Position numbers and translations under genes: made by a program
Notes under the pieces: model-generated
What the model was told of the DNA's origin: nothing
The model's input: the letters and a program-made list of their open reading frames with translations, nothing else
The model's database searches: none
Shown here: piece after piece, positions 18,505-42,174 of the stretch
How the letters are laid out: the number at the start of each line of letters is the position of its first letter
How positions within the stretch are numbered: the stretch's first letter is position 1
IMG/VR virus record: IMGVR_UViG_3300013426_000028
Location: 31,643 to 95,642 of that record
Origin: a virus
Lineage: Duplodnaviria > Caudoviricetes
Reading direction: 5' to 3' (one strand)
DNA: 64,000 bases

Positions 18505-18594
18505 TTGACTTATTTTTATATTCCTGTATACTTATTAGTGTAAAGGGGGAAAGGAAATGAACCTCCGAAGTACCCCTTACAAGTTCTTTGAAAA
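18505..18594 (+). promoter_or_regulatory. sigmaA promoter followed by boxB-like hairpin and rrn-type boxA
   Basis: TTGACT-16bp-TATACT; GTAAAGGGG/CCCCTTAC stem; AGTTCTTTGAAAA at 18582-18594. Confidence 0.75.
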
Positions 18595-19340
18595 ATCAAT
18601 ATCAGTCCATTATCATTTTGGATAAAAAAGAATTCATCACAGTGACGACGTCATAAAAGTACTAACTTAAACTGTAAAAAATAATCTGACAGTATAAACG
18701 AGGCGTCGGTACCGTGATGAACTCTTTTAAAAGCTAGTACGGAACTTGGCCAAATCCCGCTGATACTATTAAAATAACATTTATCATGTTTTCTCCAACC
18801 TATATTTAAATGAACCTTATCGGTTATTTTAATATCAAGGGAAATTGATGATGCAATGCAATACGCTATTAACCAAAATAATCAGCATAACTCAGTGAAT
18901 CCCCAATTCACTTCCCGCACTACTTTCCAAAAGATTCATTCAACCCATCCCCTTAACAGGGATGCTATGAGGGCTCTGTTTAGAAGATCCAATAGGAACA
19001 GTTATTTATATCTACTTATAAATAATTAAACTCCTTATGGTCCCTCTTTAAATGTGCAAATTTATTAATCCCTTCTTCAGAGCTTTCATAGGGTCCTTGT
19101 AAGGCCCAATTTTAGTTTTTATAGATGGACTAGGTAGACAAATTAGGTAGACAAAGAGGACGCCTGTTTTGGACAGACAGGTTTCCTTGAAGAGCAGAGA
19201 TCAGAACACCACACCACCTTCTAACCTGAAAGTATTTGATCAGTACCTTTTCTATCTCTGCTCCTTAAGGCAACTTATTTACCTTAGCTCACACCGTATT
19301 CACCACTTTTCCTCCTGGTAGTACGGTGTTTTCGTTTTCT
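18539..19340 (+). ncRNA. Putative long structured non-coding RNA (~800 nt)
   Basis: No ORF; many long stems (AAAAGAATTCATCAC/GTGATGAACTCTTTT, TATTAAAATAAC/GTTATTTTAATA, GAGCAGAGAT/ATCTCTGCTC); own promoter and boxA; terminal hairpin 19291-19329 followed by a T-rich tail. Confidence 0.65.
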
Positions 19341-20166
19341 CTTTATCCTCATCTAATCGGATCCTTTTTTCTTATTGACACTGTGTCAGTAATATTCTGT
19401 GCCCTTCTTTTTCCTCTTTTTTTATTATCTTCCTTCTTCCAGATGCTTGCAAATTGTAATCATCTGTTTTTCTCTATTTGCTCCTGTAAGTACAGTTTTT
19501 TAATACTTCGTGGAGCAAAAATTGCACTTCAAATTCTGTTTTTACCTTTTCAGGTGCAAAAAATCTCACCCTCTCGTTAAAAAACAATCGCCCTTATAGC
19601 TAATATATTAGCGATTAAGGTTACAAAAGAGGTTTATCGCTAATATTTGAGCGATTCTTTCACCATCATATAGTATCCCCTGCGAGAGCGCCCTTTTTGT
19701 GACACTGTAATGTCACTTTTCTGGATGTTTTCTATCTTTTTTTCTGGTTCTTTTCTGGATGATGCATCAATGACATAATTCTGGTATAATTATAACATAA
19801 TTATGTACCTCGTAGCTATATCATTATAATGATATATTTCACACTATTCTACTCCATATACTACACTACCTCCTCTCGTCCATTTCTTTTTTCGCTTATA
19901 GGCATACACCAGATTTTTCGCGCCTATAAGGCTGAAAAAATACGGGCGGCAGAAAAAAGGTGGCACTCCAGTAAAAAAAAGTGGGGCGCCCGTGTAAAAA
20001 GTGCCCGCTCGCATAGTTTCCCCTGGCTGCGTAGTTTTACGTCGGTCATTTCCCTTCGACGGTTATGGATTGCTTGGGGCTGGTTATAGTATCGCTTGGA
20101 TTACGGATTTACTTTGCTTGAATAAAAGTCAACTACTTAGACGGCGAGGAATAAAGGAGTGAACCT

Positions 20167-20244
20167 TTACTTTCGGCCCACTCCAGTCATGCAGCAAAAC
20201 AAATATACTGCACAAACAATGAAACTTAACATAAGTCCATTCAT
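20167..20244 (-). CDS. 25-aa hydrophobic peptide, type I toxin-like (not in ORF track)
   Basis: AAAGGAGGTGAG RBS; MNGLMLSFIVCAVYLFCCMTGVGRK; anti-SD sequence just after the stop. Confidence 0.6.
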   Translation of the reverse strand: MNGLMLSFIVCAVYLFCCMTGVGRK

Positions 20245-20300
20245 TATCTACTCACCTCCTTTCCAATATATTGTAACACATAAACTGTGTAATACAATCA

Positions 20301-21026
20301 TTAGTTTTTACCTACAACTGATAATCTTACCGTTGGAAAGATAGGACACATCATATCAAAATAATTTGCTTTGTATTCTGAAGATTCTTTTTCTTCATCT
20401 GTTAGTCCTATGGCAACTCGTCTTAACATAGCATCTGGTTTAAAATCATCTGTGAGAACATCTATATCTACAGGAGTACCATAGATTTTATTAATTGCGT
20501 CATAGATTTTATCTTCTCCAAATCGTTCTAGGTGTTCGTAATTAATAGCTAAGTTACCAAACACTTGTAGCTGAGGTACCCAGTTTTCTCTTGCTATAAT
20601 TTCTTCTAATGGAAGCAAGACGTTGTTAATTGGAAATATAGGAAACACTTTTTTGCGCTTATCAATACGAGTTAAATCAATTAATAATTGTCGTGCTTCT
20701 AAAAGAGCTGATATAATAGATGAATCTTTTAACAGGAAATTATGACATCCTTCTAATCGATGACTGTCTTTTCTTTTTAATGCTCTTATATAAGATCTGG
20801 TAATTTGATTTAAGTCTCCTTGTATACCTAAAGAATGTACACGTTCTAATAAAGCTCCGACATGAAAGTTTCCATGGCCTTGTAAAAAATCATATTCAAC
20901 TGCAACAAGCTGTTGATCCCAAGTCATAGTATTAACATAATCTTCTGTGATTTCATCATTTAATTTAATGGAGTTATAGACTCTAACAATGTGTGTAATG
21001 ATTTTGTATCTTAATTCGTTTTTCAT
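20301..21026 (-). CDS. Hypothetical protein
   Basis: 241 aa, GGAGGAAAA RBS. Confidence 0.8.
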   Translation of the reverse strand: MKNELRYKIITHIVRVYNSIKLNDEITEDYVNTMTWDQQLVAVEYDFLQGHGNFHVGALLERVHSLGIQGDLNQITRSYIRALKRKDSHRLEGCHNFLLKDSSIISALLEARQLLIDLTRIDKRKKVFPIFPINNVLLPLEEIIARENWVPQLQVFGNLAINYEHLERFGEDKIYDAINKIYGTPVDIDVLTDDFKPDAMLRRVAIGLTDEEKESSEYKANYFDMMCPIFPTVRLSVVGKN

Positions 21027-21133
21027 AAGTTTTCCTCCTAATACTTTTATTTGTTCCTATTTGATTAATACCATTATACCACAAGTGTTGTCAGCACACA
21101 AGTGGTATAATGATTTTGTTTAATTAATTTGAA

Positions 21134-21400
21134 CTACCATTCACGATAATATTTTGTGTATGAAGTATTAGGATAAAGCTTAGAATCTTCTGCTTCTTCA
21201 CATTCGGTAACAGTAATTTCAACATGATGAGTATGACATCTTGTTTCATCTGCCATTACTTCATCTACTTTCTTCTTAAGAGCATCGGATACTTTTGAAA
21301 AGTTATCCATAGGTTCTGTTACTCTGAACTCAAGAGTTGGTTCGTTCATTTCATCACAACTAACAATTTTACAACTTCCAATATAAACAATTTTTCTCAT
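21134..21400 (-). CDS. Hypothetical protein
   Basis: RBS. Confidence 0.75.
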   Translation of the reverse strand: MRKIVYIGSCKIVSCDEMNEPTLEFRVTEPMDNFSKVSDALKKKVDEVMADETRCHTHHVEITVTECEEAEDSKLYPNTSYTKYYREW

Positions 21401-21421
21401 TTTTATTTTTCCTCCTATTGT

Positions 21422-21700
21422 TTATTTATTAAGATATACTTTTTTGTCATTATAGCCTAGATCTTCAATAATCTCTGGTAAATGTTCTGTTCCGAATCCT
21501 AATGATTCATAATTGTTAAACCCTGCGACTTCGTCCATTTGAAGTTGTTCGTGCCATACATTAAATATGTGAGCGTGATTGCCCTTGTCACAGACACAAC
21601 AAGACCAACCTTCTTCTCTTCCCATATATTGTCCTGTCCAGACATCTCCAAATGCATCTTTTACCTTGTACCAGTGGCCTTTAATAAATTTGCTTTTCAT
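21422..21700 (-). CDS. Hypothetical protein
   Basis: RBS. Confidence 0.75.
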   Translation of the reverse strand: MKSKFIKGHWYKVKDAFGDVWTGQYMGREEGWSCCVCDKGNHAHIFNVWHEQLQMDEVAGFNNYESLGFGTEHLPEIIEDLGYNDKKVYLNK

Positions 21701-21761
21701 AACATATTTCCTCCTTTGTTTTAGTTATGATAGACTGTTCCTATTGAATTTTAAATTTTAA

Positions 21762-22535
21762 TTATTTAATAATACGAATCTTAAGTTGTTCTGGATATGA
21801 TATACCTGCTACACTTAATACATCATAACAAATTTCTATGAATGATAAATCTTTATATTCTTCATCGAACATACAAGCTCCACCATCATCTTCTTTCAAT
21901 TTGTTTTTCCATATTTCTATATTCTCTTCTGTTATTTTATCTTGTCTTTCGGGATTATTTTCATACACCTCATAATAAGCGTATGATTCATATCCTTCCT
22001 CATCATCTTCTTCACTTAAATCTGAAGTTCCTTCACAAATATGAAAAATCCAATGTTCATGTTCATAATCATTAGAATCTCCTACAGCTATCCAGAAATC
22101 TGTTTTAGTATTTGGACGTCCTTCAATTTTCATCTGAGATAATTTTTTCATATTTTCTTGTTCTTTATAGACATCATTTATATCCACATTAAATGCTTGA
22201 TGAGCAATCAATTCAAGCCAATCAATATAATATGTTTGAATATTTTGATTATTTTTACATTCTTCTAAAAGTTCTGCGAATGATTTACTATAAACATCTT
22301 GTAAACCATAAATTTCATTTAAGTCATCAAGAATATAATTATCATAATATATTTCTAATCTATCTAATACAGCTGCTGTATTATCAAAACGATCCTTTTC
22401 GATTTTACCAAGATTAGCACCTTGTAAATCTTCTAAACTGTAATATTGTATTCCTTCTACTTCTTCCTGTTTGATTAATTCGAAGTCCATATCTGATAAC
22501 AACATAGCACAAATTTTTGCATAATTCTTTTTCAT
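21762..22535 (-). CDS. Acidic hypothetical protein
   Basis: 257 aa, RBS. Confidence 0.8.
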   Translation of the reverse strand: MKKNYAKICAMLLSDMDFELIKQEEVEGIQYYSLEDLQGANLGKIEKDRFDNTAAVLDRLEIYYDNYILDDLNEIYGLQDVYSKSFAELLEECKNNQNIQTYYIDWLELIAHQAFNVDINDVYKEQENMKKLSQMKIEGRPNTKTDFWIAVGDSNDYEHEHWIFHICEGTSDLSEEDDEEGYESYAYYEVYENNPERQDKITEENIEIWKNKLKEDDGGACMFDEEYKDLSFIEICYDVLSVAGISYPEQLKIRIIK

Positions 22536-22599
22536 ACCTTATTTCCTCCTTTGTATGATTTAATAAACGACTGTTCCTATTTAATTTTTAAATTCTTGT

Positions 22600-22737
22600 T
22601 TATCTTATATTTAACAATAAATACAAAATTAATGTTAAAAGTACAAGAAAAACTGAATATCCTTCTCTTTTTGCCTGTTTACATATAAAATATATTACAG
22701 CACCGAAAAAGACCAATAAGAAAATTGCAACTTCCAT
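22600..22737 (-). CDS. 45-aa 2-TM membrane peptide
   Basis: ATG 22737 behind AAAGGAGG. Confidence 0.65.
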   Translation of the reverse strand: MEVAIFLLVFFGAVIYFICKQAKREGYSVFLVLLTLILYLLLNIR

Positions 22738-22763
22738 ATTGCACGTCCCTCCTTTCTTTTTAA

Positions 22764-22850
22764 TTATTGAGGTGATAATCCACACCAAAGCACGAAAAAC
22801 AAAAGTAATAATAAAGCTAAAACTAAATAAGTATAATCTTCATTACTCAT
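22764..22850 (-). CDS. 28-aa single-TM peptide (not in ORF track)
   Basis: AAAGGAG RBS; MSNEDYTYLVLALLLLLFFVLWCGLSPQ. Confidence 0.6.
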   Translation of the reverse strand: MSNEDYTYLVLALLLLLFFVLWCGLSPQ

Positions 22851-22871
22851 AATATTTTCTCCTTTCTTTTA

Positions 22872-23501
22872 TTAATGTTGATGGAAGAAAGTCATTTGAC
22901 CTAACATCATCTTCCAACAATTTTTACAAGTCTTACAACTTCCTGGACATTGATATCCGCCTGTTGGTACATTTGCTTTAAATTCAGATGATTTTTTGAA
23001 TTCGACATATGTAACAGGAAGTAAATATTTATTCTTCACTGTTTTATTATATTCTTCATCCCACATACTTAAAACAATTTTAAGATTTACAGGAAGACTT
23101 TCAATGCCATGTTTGTCAATCCATTCATTGATTAATTCCCATTTCTTAGTAAATGCTAAGAATGTTGTTTGAGGACAAGCTAACGCAACTCTGACCATAC
23201 CGTCTAAATATTGTTCGTCAACTATATCTCCTGATGAATGCCATCTGAAATATTTATATGTAACATCGTCATTGTTTAAATATTTAATAACCTCATCAAA
23301 GAACGCTACTTTATCTTCATTATATGAATTGTAATTATCCATATGAGATTTTTTAACGTTTGGATATAAATGAGTTCCTCTACGAGCGTAGCAAAGTTTT
23401 GCACAAGGTGCATTTCTTCTACAAGTGATGATTGGTGGAAGATTTAAGGTTGGAACCTTATCTCCTAATTTACTATTTGATAAACTGATGTGTACTAACA
23501 T
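22872..23501 (-). CDS. Gp88-like Cys-rich phage protein
   Basis: NSKLG, TC....PC...CYA, YFRWHSSGDI, FTKK, CPGSCKTCKNCW, terminal H. Confidence 0.8.
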   Translation of the reverse strand: MLVHISLSNSKLGDKVPTLNLPPIITCRRNAPCAKLCYARRGTHLYPNVKKSHMDNYNSYNEDKVAFFDEVIKYLNNDDVTYKYFRWHSSGDIVDEQYLDGMVRVALACPQTTFLAFTKKWELINEWIDKHGIESLPVNLKIVLSMWDEEYNKTVKNKYLLPVTYVEFKKSSEFKANVPTGGYQCPGSCKTCKNCWKMMLGQMTFFHQH

Positions 23502-23576
23502 AACATTTTTCCTCCTTATATAAAATTTTGTTATGAATCGACTCGACTGTTCCTATTTAATTTTTAATTTATATGT

Positions 23577-24401: not shown

Positions 24402-24467
24402 TTTCCTCTTTTCTTTTAAATTTTTGGGAAGCCTACATGGCTTTGTTCCTATTTAATTTTAACATTT

Positions 24468-25996: not shown

Positions 25997-26067
25997 AATT
26001 ATTTTCCTCCTATATATGAATTTAACGACTGTTCCTATTGATTTATGTATTAAAATGAATAATAAAA

Positions 26068-27039: not shown

Positions 27040-27085
27040 TTTTCCTCGATTCTTTGATTTTTGTTCCTATTTAGTTTTAATGTTC

Positions 27086-27358
27086 CTATTTAATTTGTTC
27101 TTTTAGTTTTTTGATTTCTCTTTGCATACGATCCATATTGTCAACTACACCGTTTGTGTATTCAACAATTTTTCTTTCGTTATATTCTTCTAAATCTTCA
27201 TTACGGCAATAAGGACAAACTCCTCTTGTACCATAATGATAAGCGTGATATGGATCATAAAGACCATATTCATCTTCGTAACAGAATCGTTCTTCTTCAA
27301 GATCATCTTCTGTCATAAAATGTTCACAATTTGGACAAAAATATATCATTTTGTTCAC
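27086..27358 (-). CDS. Zinc-ribbon protein
   Basis: CPNC...CPYC. Confidence 0.7.
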   Translation of the reverse strand: MNKMIYFCPNCEHFMTEDDLEEERFCYEDEYGLYDPYHAYHYGTRGVCPYCRNEDLEEYNERKIVEYTNGVVDNMDRMQREIKKLKEQIK

Positions 27359-31094: not shown

Positions 31095-31190
31095 AATTTT
31101 TCCTCCAATTTTTCCTTTTTCAAGGGATAAGAATATTTTTATGGAGAAAATATTCAAAACCTTGTTCCTATTTAATTTTCAATTTAAAGA

Positions 31191-31757: not shown

Positions 31758-31823
31758 AACTGTTTTCCTCCTATAATATAAATGTTATGATGTTCCTATT
31801 GAGTTATTGTTCCTATTTAACGA

Positions 31824-32477: not shown

Positions 32478-32753
32478 TTAATTTTCCTCTTTCTTTAAAT
32501 AGATAATGTTTGTCACCTGTCTATCAGGTAGGCTGTTCCTATATTGTCCGTATATATAATATTTTTTCATTTTTTCAGCAAGTTGAATTTGATTCATATT
32601 TCTATCAAAGAAATAATAATCATCTTTTGGTTTATTATATTTATCCTTTTTTGTATGTATTCGGACCGCATACTGGACATTCATATAATTAAGATATTGC
32701 TGAAAGGATCTGATTACAACAGATCCTCTTTTCATCTCCATTCCATTAATCAC
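32478..32753 (-). CDS. Hypothetical protein
   Basis: RBS AGGAGGTG. Confidence 0.65.
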   Translation of the reverse strand: MINGMEMKRGSVVIRSFQQYLNYMNVQYAVRIHTKKDKYNKPKDDYYFFDRNMNQIQLAEKMKKYYIYGQYRNSLPDRQVTNIIYLKKEEN

Positions 32754-32756: not shown

Positions 32757-33266
32757 CTATCTTAATTTTGTAAAGACAAGTTTACCTTTTTCAGAACCAC
32801 ATTCTGAACAGTAATACCCTTTACCTTCTGTTTTATAGATTTTACCTTTTCTATAATAAATCCATTTTTTGTGACAGCAAGGACATTCTAGCATTGCGAC
32901 TGCTTTAGGACTTAATGCTTCATCATATGTATAAAAATTACATCTTGAAATATCTACATCAAAGTGATATCCTACTATAAGTGCAAGATTTTTCCATACA
33001 GGGCCGTGATGAGCTTTAGGTCCTGCGTATGCGTGACATAACTCGTGAAGAATAACAGTTTTGATATCTTTATCGTTTACTAAAGCGTGATTGACAAATA
33101 CGGTGTTCGTAACGTATGAATATCTTCCATTAGCGGTAGCAGATATAAAATATGGATCTACTTTTATATTAACTTTTTGTATTCGTTGTCCTTGTTCTTC
33201 ATTTAAATATTCAACAACCTCATCATTTAATTGATTTGCTAATTTAATAACTGCTTCTGGTGTCAT
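32757..33266 (-). CDS. SprT-like zinc metalloprotease
   Basis: ILHELCHA...HHGPVWK; CPCC...CSECG zinc ribbon. Confidence 0.88.
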   Translation of the reverse strand: MTPEAVIKLANQLNDEVVEYLNEEQGQRIQKVNIKVDPYFISATANGRYSYVTNTVFVNHALVNDKDIKTVILHELCHAYAGPKAHHGPVWKNLALIVGYHFDVDISRCNFYTYDEALSPKAVAMLECPCCHKKWIYYRKGKIYKTEGKGYYCSECGSEKGKLVFTKLR

Positions 33267-33267: not shown

Positions 33268-33744
33268 TTACATCACCTCCTTTCCAAATACGCCACTAAG
33301 CATTATGTCAACTTTTTGACCAATTTGTTTTTCACAAGTTGGAGAAAGTTGAATATTTAAATCATCTTCTTCTTTTTGAAGATTTTCAATAATCTTAGTA
33401 GTTTCTGTTCTTTTTACTTGAAGTCTAGCCTCTCTAAGTTCATTAGCTGATGGCAAAAAGTCAGGTCTACCATTATTTTTAAACTCCTCTAAATAAGCTG
33501 GAGCTAAATAAGTGGTATCAACAAGATTTGCTGCCATCCATCTGCCTTCTCGATCTTTCTTCAAATTAAATGCAACTTGAACTCCCACCTTTGCATAACA
33601 ACGATGAGACATTAATTGTTTAAAATGAAAAAACAGATTTTCGTCAAATTTGCCATTACCCCATTGTGGAGTAATATAGCCATAACCTCCTTTCGTATTA
33701 ACTGATAAGATTGTTCCGATAAACATTTGATTTTGATGTAACAT
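33268..33744 (-). CDS. Cold-shock (OB-fold) domain protein with C-terminal extension
   Basis: RNP1-like KGGYGYI, RNP2-like LFFHF, GVQVAF, GRWMAANL. Confidence 0.8.
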   Translation of the reverse strand: MLHQNQMFIGTILSVNTKGGYGYITPQWGNGKFDENLFFHFKQLMSHRCYAKVGVQVAFNLKKDREGRWMAANLVDTTYLAPAYLEEFKNNGRPDFLPSANELREARLQVKRTETTKIIENLQKEEDDLNIQLSPTCEKQIGQKVDIMLSGVFGKEVM

Positions 33745-33745: not shown

Positions 33746-34300
33746 TTATTTACCTCCTTTATCTGTTTTTAATATAACATCAATAATTCCATATTTCAAA
33801 GCTTGTTCAGCTGTGAAGTATTTATCTCTTTGTAAATCTGCTTTAATTTGTTTAACAGATTTTCCTGTTTTTTTAGAGCAGAATTCAAACATCTTTTCTC
33901 TGATAAATTTCAACTGTTCAACAGCAATTTCAACATCCATTGAGGAGCCTTCAGCTCCACCAATTGGTTGGTGTAACATTGTTGTTGCATTTGGAGTTGC
34001 ATATCTATGTCCTTTTTCTCCATTTAATAGGATAATACCAGCCGCACTTGCTGCTAAACCAATATTATATGTATGTACTGGAGATTTAATTAAATTCATT
34101 GTATCTACAATAGAATTCATTGCATATACGCTACCTCCACAAGAATTAATATATAAATGTATAGGTGCAACAGCTTGTGCATCTAAATAGAGCAAAGCCA
34201 TTGTAACCATCTCTGCGCTAACATCATTAATTTCTCCTGTTAGCATTATTGTTCTGTTGTCTAATAATGCATTAAACATTTGTTCATTTACGTGATTCAT
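33746..34300 (-). CDS. clpP: ATP-dependent Clp protease proteolytic subunit
   Basis: LYINSCGGSV, GLAASAA (Ser), MLHQP (His), RDKYFTAEQALKYGIID (Asp). Confidence 0.93.
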   Translation of the reverse strand: MNHVNEQMFNALLDNRTIMLTGEINDVSAEMVTMALLYLDAQAVAPIHLYINSCGGSVYAMNSIVDTMNLIKSPVHTYNIGLAASAAGIILLNGEKGHRYATPNATTMLHQPIGGAEGSSMDVEIAVEQLKFIREKMFEFCSKKTGKSVKQIKADLQRDKYFTAEQALKYGIIDVILKTDKGGK

Positions 34301-34953: not shown

Positions 34954-36270
34954 TTATTTTGATAAAACGAAACCAAAACCTTTTTTAGTTTCGTAAATAC
35001 GCATAATATTGTCAACGACTTCTTTTGTAACTGGAACATTTGTCCTTTTACTGCGTGCCATACATCTATCTAATAATTCAATAGATGCATCTGGTTGCCC
35101 AGCATTATCAATTGTTTGTGATTTATCATAAATGTATTCAATCACATCCAATTCTACCGTATTATCAGCAAAATCATTTAATATATCTAATACTATCTTT
35201 TTATCTAAAGGTTTTATATTAATTGGACATAAACGACGTGACATCGCTTGATCTTTCTTAATAGTTTCTTCATATTCATTATTAGTTGTTGCACCAATAA
35301 TGGTAACTTCACCTCTTGATAAATAAGGTTTTAAGATATTGCTTGCATCAACTGCTCCTTCTGCTCCACCAGCACCCATTAATGTATGAATTTCATCAAT
35401 AAATAATATAATAGGATATTGTGGAAATTCTTTATTATATTTAATGACTGCATTTAATACAGTAGTAAGTTTTTCTTCAAACATACCTCTATATTTGGTT
35501 CCTGCAACTGTGTTTGCAATAACTAATTCAAGAATACAATATTTATCTTTAATTCTTTGATTTAGTTCTTCTATAATAACAGTTTTTCCAGAACCAGCAG
35601 GAGCAACAAGAATAGAATTTCTCATTCTTTTCTTTAATAAACTTTCTTCAAGAAGATTTAACTCATCTTCTCTACCTTTTACTTCAGTTGCTGGTTTATT
35701 CATAGGAAACAAGATATTTTGAGACTTCTTAATTATTTCATTAATAACTTGTCTTTCCTTAAAATTATTTTCAGTTGCATTAGCCCAGTGATTTGGATCC
35801 GCATATACTGGAGTTGTATAGAAATAATCAAGCACATTACAAAGAACTTCGTGATCTTCTATTGTTAAGAATAAATCTTTAAAGATTTCATCAAGAGTAA
35901 TTAATGAGTTTTCTTTATGATTCATATCAACTCTTAACAAAAAATTCTCATCATTATACCATTTGATCTTTTTCTTAGAATTAATCTGTTCATCAGGATG
36001 GTTATTTCTATCCTTTAATTTTAAAGCGTTAATTAAGTTTAATCTAAAAGAACCAACAAAATTTTCGCCTCCTATTTCAGGAATTAAAACTTCTTCTAGT
36101 AAACCACATCTATATTGTGGTTCGTTATTTCTAACTAATAAATAGTTAATTAACAACATTTCTGGATATACCTCAAAGAAATATTTTTCTTTGGCATATC
36201 TTTCTGTTGCATTAATAAAGTTTAATGCATGATAATCAAAATTGTGAACATTATAATCCATTTTTAGCAC
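34954..36270 (-). CDS. ClpA/B/C-like AAA+ ATPase containing only NBD1
   Basis: GREDEL, Walker A APAGSGKT, VAGTKYRGMFEE, Walker B ILFIDEIH, DASNILKPYLSRG, IGATT..EY, PDASIELLD. Confidence 0.9.
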   Translation of the reverse strand: MLKMDYNVHNFDYHALNFINATERYAKEKYFFEVYPEMLLINYLLVRNNEPQYRCGLLEEVLIPEIGGENFVGSFRLNLINALKLKDRNNHPDEQINSKKKIKWYNDENFLLRVDMNHKENSLITLDEIFKDLFLTIEDHEVLCNVLDYFYTTPVYADPNHWANATENNFKERQVINEIIKKSQNILFPMNKPATEVKGREDELNLLEESLLKKRMRNSILVAPAGSGKTVIIEELNQRIKDKYCILELVIANTVAGTKYRGMFEEKLTTVLNAVIKYNKEFPQYPIILFIDEIHTLMGAGGAEGAVDASNILKPYLSRGEVTIIGATTNNEYEETIKKDQAMSRRLCPINIKPLDKKIVLDILNDFADNTVELDVIEYIYDKSQTIDNAGQPDASIELLDRCMARSKRTNVPVTKEVVDNIMRIYETKKGFGFVLSK

Positions 36271-36551: not shown

Positions 36552-36564
36552 TTTTCTTCCCTCC

Positions 36565-36828
36565 TTATAAAATGTCGATTAAATCGTCTATAGTTGATAA
36601 AGCACGAGGAGTTTCTAATGTCCCCATGCTATAATCATAACAATAATAATCAGATTGTTCTTCATTAATAGCTTTTAAGATATGTATTGCAACAAACAAA
36701 TTATCATCATTAATTTTGTCTATTGCAAAATCTTTAAGGCTATCATACGAAGTAATAGAATAACCTTCTTCTTCCATTTCTTTGACAGCATCGTCAAAGC
36801 CTAATTTGTTAATTTTGTTTTTAGTCAT
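36565..36828 (-). CDS. Hypothetical protein
   Basis: RBS. Confidence 0.7.
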   Translation of the reverse strand: MTKNKINKLGFDDAVKEMEEEGYSITSYDSLKDFAIDKINDDNLFVAIHILKAINEEQSDYYCYDYSMGTLETPRALSTIDDLIDIL

Positions 36829-36835
36829 AATATTT

Positions 36836-36926
36836 TCCTCCGAGTTTTACCGACTTCTCTGTCCAGCTATATCTTTTTATACTAATTAAATGTTTGCTAA
36901 GCATTTAATGTTAGTAAGCCTTTTAA
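36836..36926 (-). ncRNA. ~90-nt repeated structured leader, copy 1
   Basis: Near-identical to 38756-38845; two predicted pseudoknots ending at the SD. Confidence 0.7.
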
Positions 36927-37133: not shown

Positions 37134-37147
37134 TGTTTTCCCCTCCT

Positions 37148-37378
37148 TTAAATCTTAGCAGGAACGATTTCTGGATTTTTATAACTTCTCCAGAAATCTA
37201 CTGCTTCATCATTATGATACATTACGATGACAACTTTGTCAACGCTTTTGTATCTTTTTTTATTGGTGTTAAAGTTCCACCATTTTTGAGCATCTTGTTC
37301 GTTTTTAAAAAAGACTTCACAGCTCCATCTATTGATAGAGTGTGCATCGTATGTTACGACAGCGTGAAATTCTGTCAT
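37148..37378 (-). CDS. Hypothetical protein
   Basis: Coupled ORF. Confidence 0.65.
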   Translation of the reverse strand: MTEFHAVVTYDAHSINRWSCEVFFKNEQDAQKWWNFNTNKKRYKSVDKVVIVMYHNDEAVDFWRSYKNPEIVPAKI

Positions 37379-37380
37379 AA

Positions 37381-37641
37381 TTACGCACCTACCTTTCTAG
37401 CAGTTTTGTTTTTGAGAGCAATTTGCTTTCTCACTCTCATAATGCATTGACGCGTAATACGCTCAATATCAACTGTTCCAAGACGATTCATCTTGGAATG
37501 TAATTTGATGAAGCCAGCATCATTTCTTAATGCTTCAACTTCCTCTTCTGTTAATTTAAAGAGATTGTAAACCTTTTTAGGTTCAGGGACTCTTAAGCCC
37601 TTTGTGTTGGTGTTTTCACCTAATGTTCTTGAGTTATTCAT
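37381..37641 (-). CDS. Basic hypothetical protein
   Basis: ATG 37641 behind AAAGGAG. Confidence 0.7.
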   Translation of the reverse strand: MNNSRTLGENTNTKGLRVPEPKKVYNLFKLTEEEVEALRNDAGFIKLHSKMNRLGTVDIERITRQCIMRVRKQIALKNKTARKVGA

Positions 37642-37791
37642 ATGTAACTCCTTTCTGTTCCTTATTGTATAATATCTTATATACCGACTTATTGTGCCGC
37701 AGTGGCAAGTGATATATCCCTTCTTATACAAAGAACTTGAAGCTTAATTAGCTTCCAAATGACTTCTATTTTCATAGAAGCCATCAAGAAA

Positions 37792-38094
37792 TTAATTAAT
37801 CTCTTGATATTTCATCAATAAATTAATTTTCTTTAATGAATCATTAATAAATGAAGCATAATCTTCATATAAAGATTCATCTTCGTATTCTTGCACATTT
37901 TTAAAGTATGTACTAAGAAGTCTGTGACTTTTATATTCAGATGAAACTTGAATAAAGTTTCTATCTTCTTTGATAAATATTCTTAGTCCTGGAAGTTTTT
38001 CACTTTCAAAGACAGTAGTGTATTCATCATTAAAACAAAAAGTTTTAACGTGAATAAATTTTATTTTATCTAAGAATAATATGAAATTCATCAT
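37792..38094 (-). CDS. Hypothetical protein
   Basis: RBS AAGGAGGTG. Confidence 0.7.
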   Translation of the reverse strand: MMNFILFLDKIKFIHVKTFCFNDEYTTVFESEKLPGLRIFIKEDRNFIQVSSEYKSHRLLSTYFKNVQEYEDESLYEDYASFINDSLKKINLLMKYQEIN

Positions 38095-38108
38095 TGTTAT
38101 TCACCTCC

Positions 38109-38747
38109 TTATTCTTCATCAAAACTATCATTCATTGATTGGAAGCATTCATCATCAATGCCTGTGATGAACAGTTCCCTTTCTTTTGCTGATAACTCAG
38201 GCAGAGCATCTTGGATATGTTCATATCCTGGTTCTGCAAAATACCATCTGAGCCAATTCTCAAATTGATCTTTGTTGATATCAACAGTGTGATATTCCTC
38301 ACATATAGGACATAATCTTCCTATTGTGAGAATACCTTTTTTGTAATTTTGGAGATGGATCTGGAAATCTCCAATAATTAATGGATCGAATCTATAACAA
38401 AAGACTCGTCCAATATATTCAATTACATTGATATTATTTTCAAATCTTTGAATATCATCAATGCAAATCATTGGAGTGAACTTGTAATTGACTCCTACAA
38501 AAAGATTGAACGAAGTAGCTTTTCCTTCTTCATCATATCCAAGTTCGATTTCAACAGGATATAAATCTGTTGTAAGAACATAAGAATTTTTCTTTTGACT
38601 TTTAATATTCATATTGCCGAATTTGACATTATAAATATCTCTCGTCTCTTCGTTGCGACATGAGTCCCAATCGGTTTCTTCAATTGAGACTTCTTTGGTT
38701 GCTAATAAAGCTTTAACCAAAGCTTCGATTAAAATAATGTTTTTCAT
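38109..38747 (-). CDS. Hypothetical protein with C-terminal CPIC...IQDALPELS..ERELFITG domain
   Basis: Common phage C-terminal motif; RBS. Confidence 0.75.
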   Translation of the reverse strand: MKNIILIEALVKALLATKEVSIEETDWDSCRNEETRDIYNVKFGNMNIKSQKKNSYVLTTDLYPVEIELGYDEEGKATSFNLFVGVNYKFTPMICIDDIQRFENNINVIEYIGRVFCYRFDPLIIGDFQIHLQNYKKGILTIGRLCPICEEYHTVDINKDQFENWLRWYFAEPGYEHIQDALPELSAKERELFITGIDDECFQSMNDSFDEE

Positions 38748-38755
38748 ATTTTGTT

Positions 38756-38863
38756 CCTCCGAGTTTTATAGACTTCACTGTCTAGTTATATCTTTTTATA
38801 CTAGTCAAATGTTTACTAAGCATTTAATATTAGTAAGCCTTTTAACGTCTTGCTCAGGACGTG
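38756..38863 (-). ncRNA. ~90-nt repeated leader, copy 2, preceded by post-stop pseudoknot A
   Basis: Repeat of 36836-36926 plus ACGTCCTGAGCAAGACGTTAAAAGGCTTA. Confidence 0.7.
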
Positions 38864-38866
38864 AAA

Positions 38867-39718
38867 TTATTCTTCAAGAATTTTTTGTAATTGAGAAATA
38901 ATTTCTTTTATATTTTCTGGTGATGTTTCTTCTGGTTTTTGATAACCATTACATTCTTCTTCATTCCATAAATGAAGAGTTTTTTGTCTTAACTCTTCTA
39001 TAAAATTTAATATCACTGGCATCTGAGCAATTTCTATTTCTGTTTCTGAGAAATAGAAATATTCATATTCTTCAACAGAAAAATCTATCCTAAAGGAATA
39101 TCTATTCCCTTCATAACTATATTGGCTGTGCTCGTCGGTTAATGTAATTTCGAATAATTCATCTCGGAGATTATCACTTCTAATTGTGGCGGTTAATGAT
39201 AATTCACCGTCATAATCGTGAACTCCAAGTTCACAATATTTTAATAAATTTAATTTTGTGAATTTTTCACAAAATTTATTTAATTTTGTTGTTTTTTTAA
39301 TGATTTGTTCATATCTTTTTTTGATTATAGAATTAAAGAAATTTGATATCTCTTTAATTGGAGGAAATTCCGCCTCCCAATCTTTTTGAAAAACTTTCCA
39401 GCTTGGTGCTGGTTGTTCTTCTGATCTTTCGTCGAAAATAGTGACATCGTTACTATCGACTTCTTCAAAATCGAATTCTTTGCCGTCTTTGTAGTCGGCT
39501 TCAATGGCAGGTCCAATTAATAAACCATTCATTGAGAAAGAATCGACTTTTCCTTTCCACATATGCATTGTTGTTAGGACATAATTATAATATCCTAAAA
39601 AGATAAAAAGGACTTCTCCATTATCTTTTTGAATATTTACATCCATTTCTATTTCAACTAATTTCCATTTTTTCAAATGTTTTAATTGAAATAATTGTGT
39701 TAATAATGTTTTTTCCAT
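38867..39718 (-). CDS. Acidic hypothetical protein
   Basis: 283-aa ORF. Confidence 0.75.
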   Translation of the reverse strand: MEKTLLTQLFQLKHLKKWKLVEIEMDVNIQKDNGEVLFIFLGYYNYVLTTMHMWKGKVDSFSMNGLLIGPAIEADYKDGKEFDFEEVDSNDVTIFDERSEEQPAPSWKVFQKDWEAEFPPIKEISNFFNSIIKKRYEQIIKKTTKLNKFCEKFTKLNLLKYCELGVHDYDGELSLTATIRSDNLRDELFEITLTDEHSQYSYEGNRYSFRIDFSVEEYEYFYFSETEIEIAQMPVILNFIEELRQKTLHLWNEEECNGYQKPEETSPENIKEIISQLQKILEE

Positions 39719-39733
39719 AATGTTACCCCCTGT

Positions 39734-39792
39734 AACCGATTCTTGATGTTATCTCCATCGCTTGTGTGGTTTTATTTATTTCACAAGATTTT
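39734..39792 (-). ncRNA. Two-hairpin leader motif, copy 1
   Basis: Covarying twin of 41895-41946. Confidence 0.65.
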
Positions 39793-39840
39793 ACGTTTTG
39801 AGTTTCAAGGATTACGTTAAACCTATGATGATTTTAATCA

Positions 39841-39905
39841 CCACCCCAACTCGAAAGAGTTGGACGCACTGAGCCTAATAGCTATTTAATGTCGCTCAGT
39901 CGACG
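39841..39905 (-). ncRNA. Pistol-like self-cleaving ribozyme
   Basis: GUCG-ACUGAG-CGAC-AUUAAAUAG-CUA-UUAGGCUCAGU-GCG-P3 hairpin-G(G)UGG; pseudoknot ACUGAGC/GCUCAGU; P2 short. Confidence 0.6.
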
Positions 39906-39932
39906 GAGCAGTTTAACGTCTTACTCAGGACA
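39905..39932 (-). ncRNA. Post-stop pseudoknot B
   Basis: UGUC-CUGAGUAA-GACG-UUAAAC-UGCUC. Confidence 0.6.
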
Positions 39933-39936
39933 TTTT

Positions 39937-39957
39937 TTATGTGAATATGTGTGTCAT
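39937..39957 (-). CDS. 6-codon minigene MTHIFT
   Basis: Perfect AAAGGAGGTGA SD; stop lies 5 nt before pseudoknot B. Confidence 0.55.
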   Translation of the reverse strand: MTHIFT

Positions 39958-40441
39958 AGTATTCACCTCCTTTCTTCCAACATTGACAGAAAGAATATAA
40001 ATCTGTATGTTGGATTATAATGTTCCATTTAGGTTAAAATAAAAAACCTTTCCTCTTTAAGCAGTTGCTATGACTACAACACTCTCTATAAAGAGGCTCG
40101 AATTTTTTAAAGAGTTAATTAATATACTCAGAAAGCATATCCTTTCTCTTGCAACTTTTTTCAGACTTTATTGCCTAATGTCTGGTTATTTTTTTGAAGT
40201 ATTACTTATTATATTAATAAGTATATTCTAATACTTCCGAGAATTTATAGCCTGGGTAAAGACTCCTCTTCTCATTGTTTATTTTTTTATACTGTGCTTA
40301 TACGATGCCACTAACGCTTTTATCACGTTTAAAATTAACAAGAAATATTATTCCTTACATCATACATAGGACCTTATCCAATGTACAATGCTTTTCTTTC
40401 GAAAAATAATCTTAATTGTAATAAAGGGGGATTCTCCCTTG

Positions 40442-40876
40442 TTATTTTATTTTTCTTAGGATTCTATCCAAGAAAGGATATTCTCCTTCTTTAAAGTAAT
40501 ATCTTGCTAATTTTTTAAGCAAGATATCACCTTCTCCCTTGAGGTGTGTCCATTTAATGGACTTAACTCCCTTAGTTGGAGTTGCTTCTCTGGGATTGTG
40601 GAAAGAAAATTGGGTTTTATTTCCTCCTAAGAAGTCTTCCTTCCATTCAAAATATCGAATGGTTGAAGGGTAACCATTTTGATCTGGCTCTTCCCTTTCA
40701 ACATAAGATATTGTTGAATGTTTGGAAGTTTTTAATAAAGCTAAAGCTTTTTTGTATAATCTTTCTTTAGCTTTATAAAAATCTTTTCGTTCATAATAAT
40801 CAGCATAATGTGCTGATGTATTAGCAGCTTGTGCTAATATAATGAAACGAATGATTTTAATGTCCTTATTAGACAT
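40442..40876 (-). CDS. Conserved phage hypothetical protein
   Basis: AQAANTSA...YKAKE...QFSFH. Confidence 0.75.
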   Translation of the reverse strand: MSNKDIKIIRFIILAQAANTSAHYADYYERKDFYKAKERLYKKALALLKTSKHSTISYVEREEPDQNGYPSTIRYFEWKEDFLGGNKTQFSFHNPREATPTKGVKSIKWTHLKGEGDILLKKLARYYFKEGEYPFLDRILRKIK

Positions 40877-41024
40877 TCTTTTCCTCCTTCCTTTTTAAAC
40901 ATAATCAGTATGTTTACCCTTCTATCTAATATAATTACATATAGATAGAAACATACTTTTTATGTTTTTATTACTTTTAGCCAGTTAACTGTTATGTCTT
41001 ACGTAAGTCATAACTTACCGAATG

Positions 41025-41074
41025 CTTGGGCTTGTGACCAAGACCGCCGCATTAATACTCTCGTACCACTCTGC
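41025..41074 (-). ncRNA. Twister ribozyme, P5-type permutation
   Basis: GCAGAGUG-GUAC(GAGA)GUAU-U^AAUGC-GGC-GGU-CUUGG-UCACAAGC-CCAAG; P1, P2, P4 and both pseudoknots (CAC/GUG, GC/GC) present. Confidence 0.88.
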
Positions 41075-41133
41075 GTGTTTTCTTTTAAATAGTGTTTTTA
41101 ACGTGGTTGGCGCTTCCACGGTCTATTGATAGA

Positions 41134-41310
41134 TTATTCTTTAATTAATGACCTATCAATTTTTATGACACGAACGTTTTTATGTTCGTTCCAGCGCAAG
41201 AACTTTGCTTCTTGTTCTGCGTCAGAACGTTTATAATAAACGTTCGCATCCATTTGTTCAACACCTGTACCACAAGTGTTAAACAAAATTATGTAAATGC
41301 TTTTTGACAT
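41134..41310 (-). CDS. 58-aa hypothetical protein (not in ORF track)
   Basis: AAAGGAG RBS; MSKSIYIILFNTCGTGVEQMDANVYYKRSDAEQEAKFLRW... Confidence 0.7.
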   Translation of the reverse strand: MSKSIYIILFNTCGTGVEQMDANVYYKRSDAEQEAKFLRWNEHKNVRVIKIDRSLIKE

Positions 41311-41340
41311 AATCTTTTTCTCCTTTCTTTATAATTAAAA

Positions 41341-41370
41341 AAGCCTTTTAACGTCATGCTTAGGACGTTA
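41341..41370 (-). ncRNA. Post-stop pseudoknot C
   Basis: UAACGUC-CUAAGCAU-GACGUUA-AAAG-GCUU. Confidence 0.6.
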
Positions 41371-41372
41371 TT

Positions 41373-41882
41373 TTATTTAACGTACGCCGTAAATGTGGCG
41401 TAATTTTTTGTTAAATAAAATTCTTTACGAAGATTATCTCCGTAATTAAATTTTATTTTAACATATTCTTCAAATTCTTCTAGGCTTAAAGGCCTATTGA
41501 ATGTGAAGAAATATTTGTCATAGTCAATGCCAGTTCTTCTGGCGTGCCAGTCAGAAAAACCGACTACCTTGTAGTTGTGTTTACAACGCAAGGCGTATTC
41601 GTCAGACCAGATAGAAATTACTGACCCGTCGATACACTTAACTCTAATGAACCCTGTTTTTGGGTCATTAAAGTCTATAATACCATCAAAACTGATGGTT
41701 AAAATGTCTTCGGTGTTTTTTGCACCAATGAAGACTAAACTGTCTTTTTCTCCACAGTGCTTTGTCACCTTGACAAAAAATTTTTTGTTTTTCTTAAAAA
41801 ATTTTGTGATGACTGGATGAGTGGAAATTAAACCACTTTCCAAAACGAATGTAGACATAATCATATTAATAGCATTTTCCAT
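41373..41882 (-). CDS. Hypothetical protein
   Basis: GGAGG RBS. Confidence 0.7.
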   Translation of the reverse strand: MENAINMIMSTFVLESGLISTHPVITKFFKKNKKFFVKVTKHCGEKDSLVFIGAKNTEDILTISFDGIIDFNDPKTGFIRVKCIDGSVISIWSDEYALRCKHNYKVVGFSDWHARRTGIDYDKYFFTFNRPLSLEEFEEYVKIKFNYGDNLRKEFYLTKNYATFTAYVK

Positions 41883-41894
41883 TGTTGTTCCTCC

Positions 41895-41946
41895 AACCAG
41901 TTCTTGACATTATCTCCACTGCCCGCCAGGAAAATGACGGGATTTT
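41895..41946 (-). ncRNA. Two-hairpin leader motif, copy 2
   Basis: Covarying twin of 39734-39792. Confidence 0.65.
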
Positions 41947-42149
41947 AAGTTTTGTTTTATGGGATAACTTTAAACCCATTAGCAAGAGTCACCTTGCTAT
42001 AGATGACAATTGCCATCTAAGAAAGTGTAATATACATTTTTTAGATATATTTTATGGGTATTACACTTCCCATCCGATCAGTGAGCCAACACGACATAAA
42101 AACCTCCTATAATCAACCCTTCAACTATTTTTCAGAGTATCCCCCCAAC

Positions 42150-42174
42150 AAAAAAAGAGTCCTCTCAGACTCTT
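42150..42174 (-). terminator. Intrinsic terminator of the RNAP operon
   Basis: AAGAGTC-TGAGAG-GACTCTT plus T tract on the - strand. Confidence 0.65.

What the first reader, a model, noticed from the sequence alone, without database searches (positions are those of the whole stretch)
18505..42150. Candidate RNA-level control system: a 22-kb early operon studded with ribozymes, pseudoknots and a repeated box, facing a long ncRNA that carries the same box and an anti-SD loop
Seen: about 45 co-oriented small genes (- strand, 20.2-42 kb) with few sigmaA promoters. The upstream gaps (36.8-42 kb) hold a twister, a pistol-like ribozyme and three families of repeated covarying RNA structures. The downstream gaps (21-32.5 kb) hold about 12 AAUAGGAACA boxes. 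A convergent + strand ncRNA (18.5-19.3 kb) contains one AAUAGGAACA in the same RNA sense and exposes UUUUCCUCC, complementary to the GGAGGAAAA RBS used by many of these genes. The operon also encodes a cold-shock-domain RNA-binding protein. Inference: the phage processes, stabilises and later silences its host-takeover transcript through RNA elements plus a sponge/anti-SD RNA. I do not know a described phage system with this combination, but the parts may act independently.
Basis: partly seen in the sequence, partly recalled or inferred. Interest (0 to 1): 0.9.

Follow-up and report, generated by a model that had tools for sequence, protein, structure and literature searches.

The report
Phage promoter-like boxes, ribozymes, long RNA
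An uncultured gut-type phage carries real self-cleaving ribozymes, a candidate 800-base structured RNA and a 17-base box before ten genes, but the box is most likely a phage-specific promoter (the phage encodes its own YonO-type RNA polymerase) and the parts look independent rather than one RNA-level control system.

Summary
Rfam confirms a pistol and a type-P5 twister ribozyme. AATAGGAACA occurs 11 times exactly plus one TATAGGAACA, all gene-sense between 21.0 and 32.5 kb. One more copy lies on the + strand at 18991, and there is none elsewhere in the 95.6-kb record. The 18.5-19.3 kb stretch has a consensus sigma-A promoter, an intrinsic terminator whose loop reads CUUUUCCUCCU, and no conserved ORF.

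A group I intron interrupts it inside the DxDGD metal loop.

The box is really an asymmetric 17-nt motif followed by a purine, A-AATT(A/C)AATAGGAACA(G/A). It sits 22-68 nt before start codons, where the + strand genes carry sigma-A promoters. An 84%-identical relative keeps it despite flank changes and an indel.

My reading is that the box is a phage-specific (middle) promoter, about 0.5. Which enzyme reads it is open, because relatives with a 65%-identical polymerase lack it. An RNA-level site with an RNA sponge is not excluded (about 0.2). The repeated "covarying structures" are repeats with weak structural support. The scan had noted these pieces separately on this genome.

The parts
46803..48470 (-). 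Exon 1 of the YonO/RdRP-type single-chain RNA polymerase (556 codons, ends ...DADYD)
   Evidence: Pfam RdRP PF05183 at 37.5 bits, E 1.6e-9. tblastn gives 28% identity to SPbeta yonO, E 5e-26. 666 homologues were found.
46394..46802 (-). Group I intron splitting the polymerase gene inside the DxDGD metal-binding motif
   Evidence: Rfam Intron_gpI at 19.1 bits, E 0.017, below the gathering score, with the AAGAUAUAGUC core. The 5' exon ends in U and the intron ends in G. Joining the exons gives DADYD|GDIV, as in unsplit relatives of 955-973 aa.
45116..46393 (-). Exon 2 of the polymerase (425 codons)
   Evidence: The frame is continuous with unsplit relatives. 58-60% identity to G001 and G004.
48563..48592 (-). 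Best sigma-A-type early promoter in front of the polymerase gene (TTGACA-N16-TATACT)
   Evidence: Promoter scan, 11 of 12 positions. It is one of only two strict-consensus sites on the - strand of the whole record.
41026..41075 (-). Type-P5 twister ribozyme between genes 41310-41134 and 40876-40442
   Evidence: Rfam 44.8 bits against a gathering score of 37.6.
39840..39905 (-). Pistol ribozyme upstream of gene 39718-38867
   Evidence: Rfam 54.4 bits against a gathering score of 34.5.
32534..32543 (-). Box variant TATAGGAACA, 58 nt before ATG 32475, inside the 3' end of ORF 32741-32478
31791..31817 (-). Two tandem boxes 17 nt apart (31817 and 31800), before ATG 31757
31163..31172 (-). Box 68 nt before ATG 31094 (PcfJ-domain protein)
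27062..27090 (-). Two tandem boxes 19 nt apart (27090 and 27071), before ATG 27039
26030..26039 (-). Box 33 nt before ATG 25996
24444..24453 (-). Box 48 nt before ATG 24395, followed at once by a small hairpin
23548..23557 (-). Box 46 nt before ATG 23501 (GP88-family protein)
22572..22581 (-). Box 36 nt before ATG 22535
21736..21745 (-). Box 35 nt before ATG 21700. Relative L267 keeps it although 21 nt just upstream are deleted.
21052..21061 (-). Box 25 nt before ATG 21026. It lies 11 nt downstream of an extended -10 sigma-A promoter (TGGTATAAT, hexamer 21073-21078).
18991..19000 (+). Single + strand box inside the ncRNA region. The core is intact in L267 while both flanking dinucleotides differ.
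18505..19340 (+). Candidate structured ncRNA of about 800 nt: sigma-A promoter 18505-18532, body, and terminator hairpin 19291-19330 plus U-run, with the loop CUUUUCCUCCU at 19306-19316
   Evidence: No Rfam family matches at E<1.
33268..33744 (-). 158-aa protein with an N-terminal cold-shock domain (borderline score)
38835..38871 (-). Copy A of the 37-nt hairpin repeat placed after stop codons (other copies at 39906-39942 and 41341-41377)
   Evidence: Repeat family D2. Fold z -0.2 to -1.8.
36825..36926 (-). 102-nt leader repeat, with a second copy at 38744-38845 (88% identical), ending at the start codons of genes 36828 and 38747
   Evidence: Repeat family D1. Fold z about 0.
39729..39757 (-). 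29-nt leader repeat, with a second copy at 41890-41918, abutting the SD of genes 39718 and 41882
   Evidence: Repeat family D7. Fold z -0.6 and -2.3.
13894..14631 (+). Phage sigma-70-family factor, an alternative reader of the box
   Evidence: Pfam Sigma70_r2 and PHROG 351.

Best explanation
The stretch holds several separate layers of an ordinary phage expression programme, not one RNA-level circuit.

(1) Early transcription. Host sigma-A polymerase starts at about 48.6 kb and transcribes leftward. The first product is a YonO-type single-chain RNA polymerase, whose mRNA must first splice out a group I intron. Two self-cleaving ribozymes (twister-P5 and pistol) cut this early polycistronic RNA.

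(2) The box. It is a compact, asymmetric DNA promoter of about 17 bp, A-AATT(A/C)AATAGGAACA, followed by a purine. Transcription would start at the GG inside it or at that purine. It would give ten genes or small operons of the distal 11.5 kb their own phage-specific (middle-class) transcription. Less likely it is host core enzyme carrying the phage sigma or helped by a phage activator.

(3) The + strand copy at 18991 would then be a second, internal promoter of the ncRNA gene. It would keep the 3' domain with the anti-SD loop expressed after the switch of polymerase. The same arrangement, a sigma-A promoter followed by a box, is seen at 21061-21078.

(4) The ~800-nt RNA is a separate, uncharacterised structured RNA. 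Its C-rich terminator loop could pair with AGGAGGAAAA ribosome-binding sites, as C-rich-loop sRNAs of Firmicutes do.

Shown: the motifs, their positions, the polymerase gene, the ribozymes, and conservation in one relative. Inferred: every transcription start, the enzyme that reads the box, and any action of the ncRNA.
For: - Polymerase. Pfam RdRP hit, homology to yonO, the DxDGD loop restored across the intron, and a position directly behind the best - strand sigma-A promoter.
- Shape of the box. It is invariant over 9-10 nt and conserved over 17 nt, then a purine in 11 of 13 copies. There is no palindrome, no hairpin and no -35 partner.
- Tandem copies lie 17 and 19 nt apart, the length of one unit.
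- Position. 11 of 12 copies are intergenic where only 10% of the DNA is. All are gene-sense and 22-68 nt before an ATG. They are too close to the SD (13-14 nt at 21061 and 27071) to be a -35/-30 element.
- Promoter economy. There are 15 strict sigma-A consensus promoters on the + strand and 2 on the - strand. In front of + strand genes they occupy the same place that the boxes hold in front of - strand genes.
- Selection. In L267 (84% identical) all three boxes within its span survive, one despite a 21-nt deletion and one with both flanks changed.
- Precedents. Bacillus phage 0305phi8-36 has an RdRP-like orf99 and 14 copies of a 21-bp phage-specific promoter candidate (PMC2147016). The Thermus phage P23-45 two-barrel polymerases read multi-copy conserved motifs mapped by TSS sequencing (PMC10770324).
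Against: - No transcript ends could be examined.
- The complete relatives G001 and G004, whose polymerase is 65% identical, have no box and no other multi-copy motif apart from sigma-A promoters and SD sequences. The polymerase family therefore does not generally use many promoters.
- SPbeta YonO uses one mapped start for its late operon, and its promoter sequence is unknown (PMC5467207).
- A different 40-nt element (50527 and 58065, +) is partly conserved in G001. It could be the polymerase's real promoter.
- At 21061 the box would lie at about +5 to +14 of a sigma-A transcript, and at 18991 it lies inside a sigma-A transcript. An RNA-level reading fits both just as well.
Confidence: 0.5

Rival explanations
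1. RNA-level site. AAUAGGAACA in the leaders is bound or cut by a sequence-specific factor, either a phage protein of the block or a host GGA-binding regulator of the CsrA type. This would control translation or stability of the ten messages. The abundant ncRNA, which carries one box and an anti-SD loop, would act as decoy and SD blocker.
For: All boxes are in the RNA sense of their genes. One lies inside a sigma-A-driven structured RNA, and one at the 5' end of a sigma-A transcript. Tandem boxes are 17-19 nt apart and single boxes lie 13-56 nt from a GGA-containing SD. From my own knowledge, this resembles the two-site spacing preferred by CsrA dimers. The anti-SD loop is conserved in L267 and matches the RBS of 10 genes.
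Against: There is no CsrA gene in the 95.6 kb held, and the CSD protein is borderline and not known to read such a motif. The box has no hairpin context. The conserved part extends 7 nt upstream into an AT-rich A-AATTA segment and is followed by a purine, as promoters are. A single decoy site against 12 targets is a poor sponge. Bacterial proteins that read a linear RNA motif of 10-17 nt are rare, whereas 17-23 bp promoters of phage polymerases are common (my own knowledge).
Confidence: 0.2
2. The box is a promoter element read by host core polymerase with the phage sigma factor (13894-14631), or by sigma-A holoenzyme helped by a phage activator. The YonO-type polymerase would instead serve a few late promoters, as in SPbeta.
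For: A sigma gene is present. In about half the copies the upstream half of the motif resembles a weak -10 (TAAAAT). Box and sigma-A promoters share AAATAG just before the likely start. Relatives with the same polymerase family lack the box. A conserved 40-nt element is a candidate for the polymerase.
Against: There is no -35-like partner, although the sigma has a C-terminal HTH-like region 4. G001 and G004 also carry weak sigma homologues, so the absence of the box there does not discriminate. The 40-nt element itself looks bipartite (TTACGC-N17-TATATA), as a sigma promoter would.
Confidence: 0.2
3. The box is a DNA site for a regulator (repressor or activator), or a cassette-boundary or recombination sequence, with no direct role as a start site.
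For: At 21061 it lies just downstream of a sigma-A -10, a classical operator position. Repeated intergenic signals bound gene cassettes in other large phages (my own knowledge). Iteron-like AATAGGAACA arrays occur in unrelated viral contigs.
Against: Only 1-2 of the 13 boxes adjoin a recognisable sigma-A promoter. The motif is asymmetric and strictly gene-sense, unlike dimeric operators. The box genes would then have almost no promoters at all.
Confidence: 0.08

Closest known systems
Bacillus thuringiensis phage 0305phi8-36: RdRP-like polymerase orf99 with 14 copies of a 21-bp phage-specific promoter candidate (PMC2147016)
   Same: A Firmicutes phage that encodes a Pfam PF05183 polymerase and carries a strongly self-similar short motif in promoter-sized gaps before non-structural genes, proposed as middle promoters. 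It is also untested by experiment.
   Different: That phage is a 218-kb jumbo phage with no sigma factor, and its motif has a different sequence and length. Here there is also a sigma gene, the polymerase is intron-split, and the motif is confined to one 11.5-kb block.
YonO of Bacillus prophage SPbeta (PMC5467207)
   Same: A homologous single-chain two-barrel DNA-dependent RNA polymerase (28% identity over 425 aa). In SPbeta its transcript starts with a long non-coding leader or ncRNA.
   Different: YonO has one mapped start for one late operon, and no promoter consensus is known. I found no sequence likeness between that region and the box. Here there are 13 sites before early-looking small genes.
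[quoted passage not shown]
   Same: Single-chain two-barrel phage polymerases that read many copies of a short conserved motif upstream of small early genes.
   Different: They are very distant in sequence (no PDB hit with the family profile), and their promoters were mapped by ONT-cappable-seq and ChIP. Nothing is mapped here.
T7-type promoters (conserved -17 to +6, start at GGGAGA)
   Same: The box works like them in outline. It is a compact, asymmetric, sigma-independent-looking motif, and ...AATA|GGAACA resembles ...TATA|GGGAGA.
   Different: The polymerase family is unrelated (no PF00940 in the record). The resemblance is a lead only.
Clustered self-cleaving ribozymes (twister, pistol, hatchet, hammerhead) in phage and Firmicutes DNA; Rfam RF02684 and RF02679
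   Same: Both ribozymes pass the curated thresholds. They lie 1.1 kb apart, in the sense strand of an operon of small genes.
   Different: Nothing unusual was found. Their biological role is unknown here, as it is elsewhere.
C-rich-loop sRNAs of Firmicutes that pair with SD sequences (RoxS, RsaE type; my own knowledge)
   Same: An exposed CCUCC-containing loop complementary to ribosome-binding sites.
   Different: This is an ~800-nt RNA with the motif in its terminator loop. It has no sequence or Rfam relation to those sRNAs, and no target is shown.

Membership tests
YonO/RdRP-type two-barrel RNA polymerase (Pfam PF05183) | Profile match above the curated threshold | tested here: met
   37.5 bits against a cut-off of 23.8, covering residues 119-556 of exon 1.
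YonO/RdRP-type two-barrel RNA polymerase (Pfam PF05183) | Direct sequence homology to the characterised YonO | tested here: met
   tblastn gives 28% identity over residues 125-550, E 5e-26, on the annotated yonO of SPBc2.
YonO/RdRP-type two-barrel RNA polymerase (Pfam PF05183) | Metal-binding DxDGD loop | tested here: met
   The loop is present only after removal of the intron: DADYD|GDIV. Unsplit relatives read DADFDGDIV.
YonO/RdRP-type two-barrel RNA polymerase (Pfam PF05183) | Two double-psi beta-barrel fold and DNA-dependent activity | not tested
   No structure was predicted. The family profile finds no PDB chain by sequence. Activity needs an experiment.
Pistol ribozyme (RF02679) | Covariance-model score at or above the gathering score | tested here: met
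   54.4 against 34.5, full-length model 1-68.
Type-P5 twister ribozyme (RF02684) | Covariance-model score at or above the gathering score | tested here: met
   44.8 against 37.6, full-length model 1-58.
Group I intron (RF00028) | Covariance-model score at or above the gathering score | tested here: not met
   19.1 against 50 bits (E 0.017 in a 600-nt search).
Group I intron (RF00028) | U at the end of the 5' exon, terminal G of the intron, and an exon junction that restores a conserved protein motif | tested here: met
   ...GAU|UGA...UCG|GGA. The junction restores DxDGD in register with unsplit homologues.
Phage-polymerase-specific promoter | Multi-copy, oriented, conserved motif in promoter-sized gaps upstream of genes | tested here: met
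   13 copies with a 17-nt logo. 11 of the 12 - strand copies are intergenic, and all are gene-sense.
Phage-polymerase-specific promoter | Primary transcript 5' ends at the motif, dependent on the phage polymerase | not testable with these tools
No RNA data were available.
Phage-polymerase-specific promoter | Motif co-occurs with the polymerase in relatives | tested here: not met
   15 related viral records were scanned, 12 of them at least 90% complete by CheckV. They carry the polymerase at 41-66% identity and hold 0-1 exact boxes each. G001 and G004 have no box-like site before genes. Only the 84%-identical fragment L267 keeps the box.
Known large or structured RNA families (ROOL, GOLLD, OLE, HEARO, 6S and others in Rfam 15) | Any covariance-model match to 17.5-21.2 kb at E<1 | tested here: not met
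   The only hit is a chance-level one (PK-BYV, E 0.9).

The most novel reading that the evidence does not exclude
The ~800-nt + strand RNA is a new class of phage regulatory RNA. It would both titrate a box-binding factor and mask AGGAGGAAAA ribosome-binding sites with its anti-SD loop, so that box, ncRNA and a phage RNA-binding protein form one post-transcriptional timer for the middle genes.
Probability: 0.08. Interest if true: 0.85.

Novelty: new member of a known kind. Interest (0 to 1): 0.45.

Why it matters
No promoter sequence is known for any YonO-family polymerase. A 17-bp motif in 13 copies next to such an enzyme is a cheap, direct in vitro test (spliced polymerase plus a box template). 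If it holds, it would give a first promoter consensus and possibly a new orthogonal transcription tool for Firmicutes. If it fails, the box becomes a more unusual object: a long linear RNA or DNA recognition site specific to one phage lineage. Separately, the ~800-nt RNA has a consensus promoter, a terminator and no Rfam family. It is a candidate new structured phage RNA that deserves its own comparative study once more relatives can be fetched.

Tried and rejected
- Close relatives in public phage records. Megablast of 8 kb found nothing. blastn of the ncRNA region matched only the promoter of Staphylococcus phages.
- Relatives by the AAA ATPase and by the 257-aa protein in IMG/VR. None were found.
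- A 14-mer scan of IMG/VR gave only single chance hits.
- A tandem-box scan found 78 loci. All were coding tandem repeats or unrelated iteron-like arrays.
- T7-type polymerase (PF00940) and CsrA (PF02599) are absent from the record.
- SPbeta P_YonO. The start lies between the published primers. That region is a conserved structured leader with no likeness to the box. Exact mapping of coordinate 2225998 was not possible, because the B. subtilis 168 genome was not among the loci returned.
- A k-mer conserved downstream of 65 yonO homologues. None was found.
- De novo motif search in G001, G004 and MT835481 turned up only sigma-A promoters and SD sequences.
- nhmmer of 18.0-20.3 kb against all fetched relatives gave no hit.
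- Covariation in the ncRNA with the single relative. MFE pairs were kept 14 times and broken 29 times on +, and kept 21 and broken 36 on -. This is uninformative.
- The polymerase family profile against the PDB gave no hit.

Full report
**Source.** The window is the right two thirds of a 95.6-kb IMG/VR virus record with 30.7% G+C, estimated 69% complete. Near-identical phages reach 143 kb. Gene content shows a large phage of a low-G+C Gram-positive host: Pol III alpha-type DNA polymerase, DnaB helicase, primase, Sak4, nucleotidyltransferases, a portal protein, tail fibres and a sigma factor. The strong GGAGG ribosome-binding sites agree with such a host.

**Check of the observation.**
- Rfam's curated thresholds are passed by a pistol ribozyme (39840-39905, -) and a type-P5 twister (41026-41075, -). 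A HEARO/IscB omega-RNA also passes just outside the stretch.
- AATAGGAACA occurs 11 times exactly on the - strand between 21061 and 31817. There is one TATAGGAACA at 32543 and one exact copy on the + strand at 18991. There is no other exact copy in the whole 95.6 kb.
- The - strand block from 42.7 to 20.2 kb holds about 39 genes by my count, not about 45.
- AGGAGGAAAA is the RBS of ten of these genes. Its complement sits in the 10-nt loop of a 14-bp terminator hairpin at 19291-19330 (z -6.2).
- A cold-shock domain is found in the 158-aa product of 33744-33268, but at the threshold (26.5-27.9 bits against 27). Its neighbours are a ClpP protease, a SprT-like protein and an AAA ATPase.
- The three 'families of covarying structures' are genuine direct repeats of two or three copies. 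Their predicted folds are no more stable than shuffled sequence (z -0.1 to -2.3), and two or three copies cannot carry a covariation argument.

The first gene behind the best - strand sigma-A promoter (48592-48563) is a YonO-type polymerase.
- It matches Pfam RdRP PF05183 and is 28% identical to SPbeta yonO. It has 666 homologues in metagenomes, either 955-973 aa long or split near residue 555.
- Here the gene is split at 46803/46393 by a 409-nt insert. The insert has a weak Rfam group I intron match with the typical AAGAUAUAGUC core. A U ends the 5' exon and a G ends the insert.
- Joining the exons restores DADYD|GDIV, the universal DxDGD metal loop, in register with unsplit relatives.
- A sigma-70-family gene lies at 13894-14631.

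**Anatomy of the box.**
- Aligning the 13 copies shows that conservation runs from 7 nt upstream to the end of the 10-mer: A-AATT(A/C)AATAGGAACA. The next base is a purine in 11 of 13 copies.
- Nothing is conserved further up- or downstream. There is no dyad symmetry and no common hairpin.
- The two tandem pairs are 17 and 19 nt apart, which is one unit length.
- Eleven of the twelve - strand copies are intergenic where only 10% of the DNA is. All are gene-sense, 22-68 nt before the next ATG, and as close as 13-14 nt to the SD. That closeness rules out a -35 or MotA-type position and places any start site in or right after the box.

**Promoter economy.**
- A strict sigma-A consensus (TTGA[CT][AT]-N16-18-TATA[AC]T) occurs 15 times on the + strand. 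These sites lie in front of replication and metabolism genes and of the ncRNA, and they share TATAAT-AAATAGTGTAAAGGAG.
- The same consensus occurs only twice on the - strand.
- In the distal - strand block the boxes stand where those promoters stand on the other strand.

**Relatives.**
- One metagenome contig (L267, 3996 nt) is 84% identical to 22537-18476. All three boxes in its span are kept. The box at 21745 survives a 21-nt deletion immediately upstream, and the box at 18991 survives changes in both flanking dinucleotides.
- I scanned fifteen viral records with a 41-66% identical polymerase. Twelve of them are at least 90% complete by CheckV. They hold 0-1 exact boxes each.
- Full motif searches of two of them (G001, G004) and of MT835481 found only sigma-A promoters and SD sequences. 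They share few genes of this block.
- The box is therefore under selection within its lineage, but it does not travel with the polymerase family.
- A different, perfectly duplicated 40-nt element lies at 50527 and 58065 (+): GTTACGCAGGAATATCCGTAAAAGTATATATGGAAAGAGA. It sits before the exonuclease operon and just upstream of the portal gene, and G001 has a recognisable copy. It is a second candidate phage promoter and competes for the polymerase.

**Literature.**
- The promoter of YonO is unknown. One start was mapped, in front of a non-coding leader and yonK (PMC5467207). That region is a conserved structured RNA with no likeness to the box.
- Bacillus phage 0305phi8-36 pairs an RdRP-like orf99 with 14 copies of a 21-bp promoter candidate (PMC2147016).
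- The two-barrel polymerases of Thermus phage P23-45 read multi-copy motifs mapped at transcript starts (PMC10770324).

**The ncRNA.**
- Its promoter with the upstream A-tract is identical in L267.
- The body is conserved in blocks, with replaced or inserted segments and frame-breaking indels.
- A strong terminator closes it at about 19340.
- The + strand folds far better than shuffles (z -8.8), and the - strand less so (z -4.8).
- No Rfam family matches, and no relative beyond L267 shows it.
- With one relative, covariation is uninformative. I accept it as a good candidate structured RNA of unknown function.
- The box inside it is readily explained as an internal second promoter, the same sigma-A-then-box arrangement as at 21061-21078. 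A decoy role cannot be excluded.

**Verdict.** The parts are real, but the evidence does not tie them into one RNA-level system.
- The box is most likely a phage-specific promoter, about 0.5 for the phage-polymerase version. The sigma or activator version adds about 0.2 to the DNA-level reading.
- An RNA-level site stands at about 0.2.
- The kind of system (a phage polymerase with its own short promoters, clustered ribozymes, a C-rich-loop RNA) is known.
- What is new: a candidate promoter consensus beside a YonO-type enzyme, an unclassified ~800-nt RNA, and an intron in the polymerase's catalytic loop.
- Two tools that could have settled more were unavailable: the look-up of sequencing runs and the look-up of encoding contigs.

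Noticed in passing
window 46394-46802 (-): A group I intron of 409 nt with no ORF sits exactly inside the codons of the DxDGD catalytic loop of the YonO-type polymerase. Many metagenomic homologues are split at the same point (553-577 aa forms).
   Followed up: partly
window 20161-20244 (-): A 27-codon hydrophobic ORF (MNGLMLSFIVCAVYLFCCMTGVGRK) with a strong SD lies after the last gene of the block and is followed by a terminator-like hairpin. In L267 it differs by two synonymous changes and one V-to-A change. It could be a small membrane peptide or a type I toxin-like gene.
   Followed up: partly
window 50527-50566 and 58065-58104 (+): A perfect 40-nt repeat, GTTACGCAGGAATATCCGTAAAAGTATATATGGAAAGAGA, looks bipartite (TTACGC-N17-TATATA). 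It lies upstream of the exonuclease operon and of the gene before the portal. A similar single copy is in relative G001 at 111985(-). It is a candidate late promoter.
   Followed up: partly
whole record, + strand (for example window 10574, 12189, 13023, 16522, 18505): A family of about 15 consensus sigma-A promoters shares TTGACT-N17-TATAAT-AAATAGTGTAAAGGAG on the + strand, against 2 on the - strand. The ncRNA promoter belongs to this family.
   Followed up: yes
window 43614-45123 (-): An IscB-type HNH protein (412 aa) with its HEARO omega-RNA (111 bits) is inserted directly after the polymerase gene, and the RNA overlaps the polymerase stop codon.
   Followed up: no
window 19345-20160: A further 800 nt without conserved ORFs lies between the ncRNA terminator and the end of the - strand block. 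It is conserved in blocks with L267, and 19990-20300 is 93-96% identical, higher than the neighbouring coding DNA. Strand and function are unknown.
   Followed up: no
window 18000-18480: An AT-rich stretch upstream of the ncRNA promoter holds repeated GAATCTG and ATCTAGATGA words. It could be iterons, an origin or a packaging site.
   Followed up: no
L124 3410-3475 (-) (SPBc2 59409-59474): The 1.7-kb non-coding leader that YonO transcribes in SPbeta contains a DUF3800-VIII RNA (Rfam 47.5 bits against 40.2). It also has a long hairpin with compensatory changes among SPbeta-like prophages.
   Followed up: partly
window 33746-34300, 32757-33266, 34954-36261 (-): The early block encodes a ClpP protease (199 bits), a SprT-like metalloprotease-fold protein and an AAA ATPase, next to the cold-shock-domain protein.
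   Followed up: no
L305 13761-13813 and L325 13856-13887: Unrelated viral contigs carry direct and inverted arrays of AATAGGAACA/AATAGGAAAA around an AT-rich spacer. They look like iterons or an operator array, and the likeness to the box is probably chance.
   Followed up: partly
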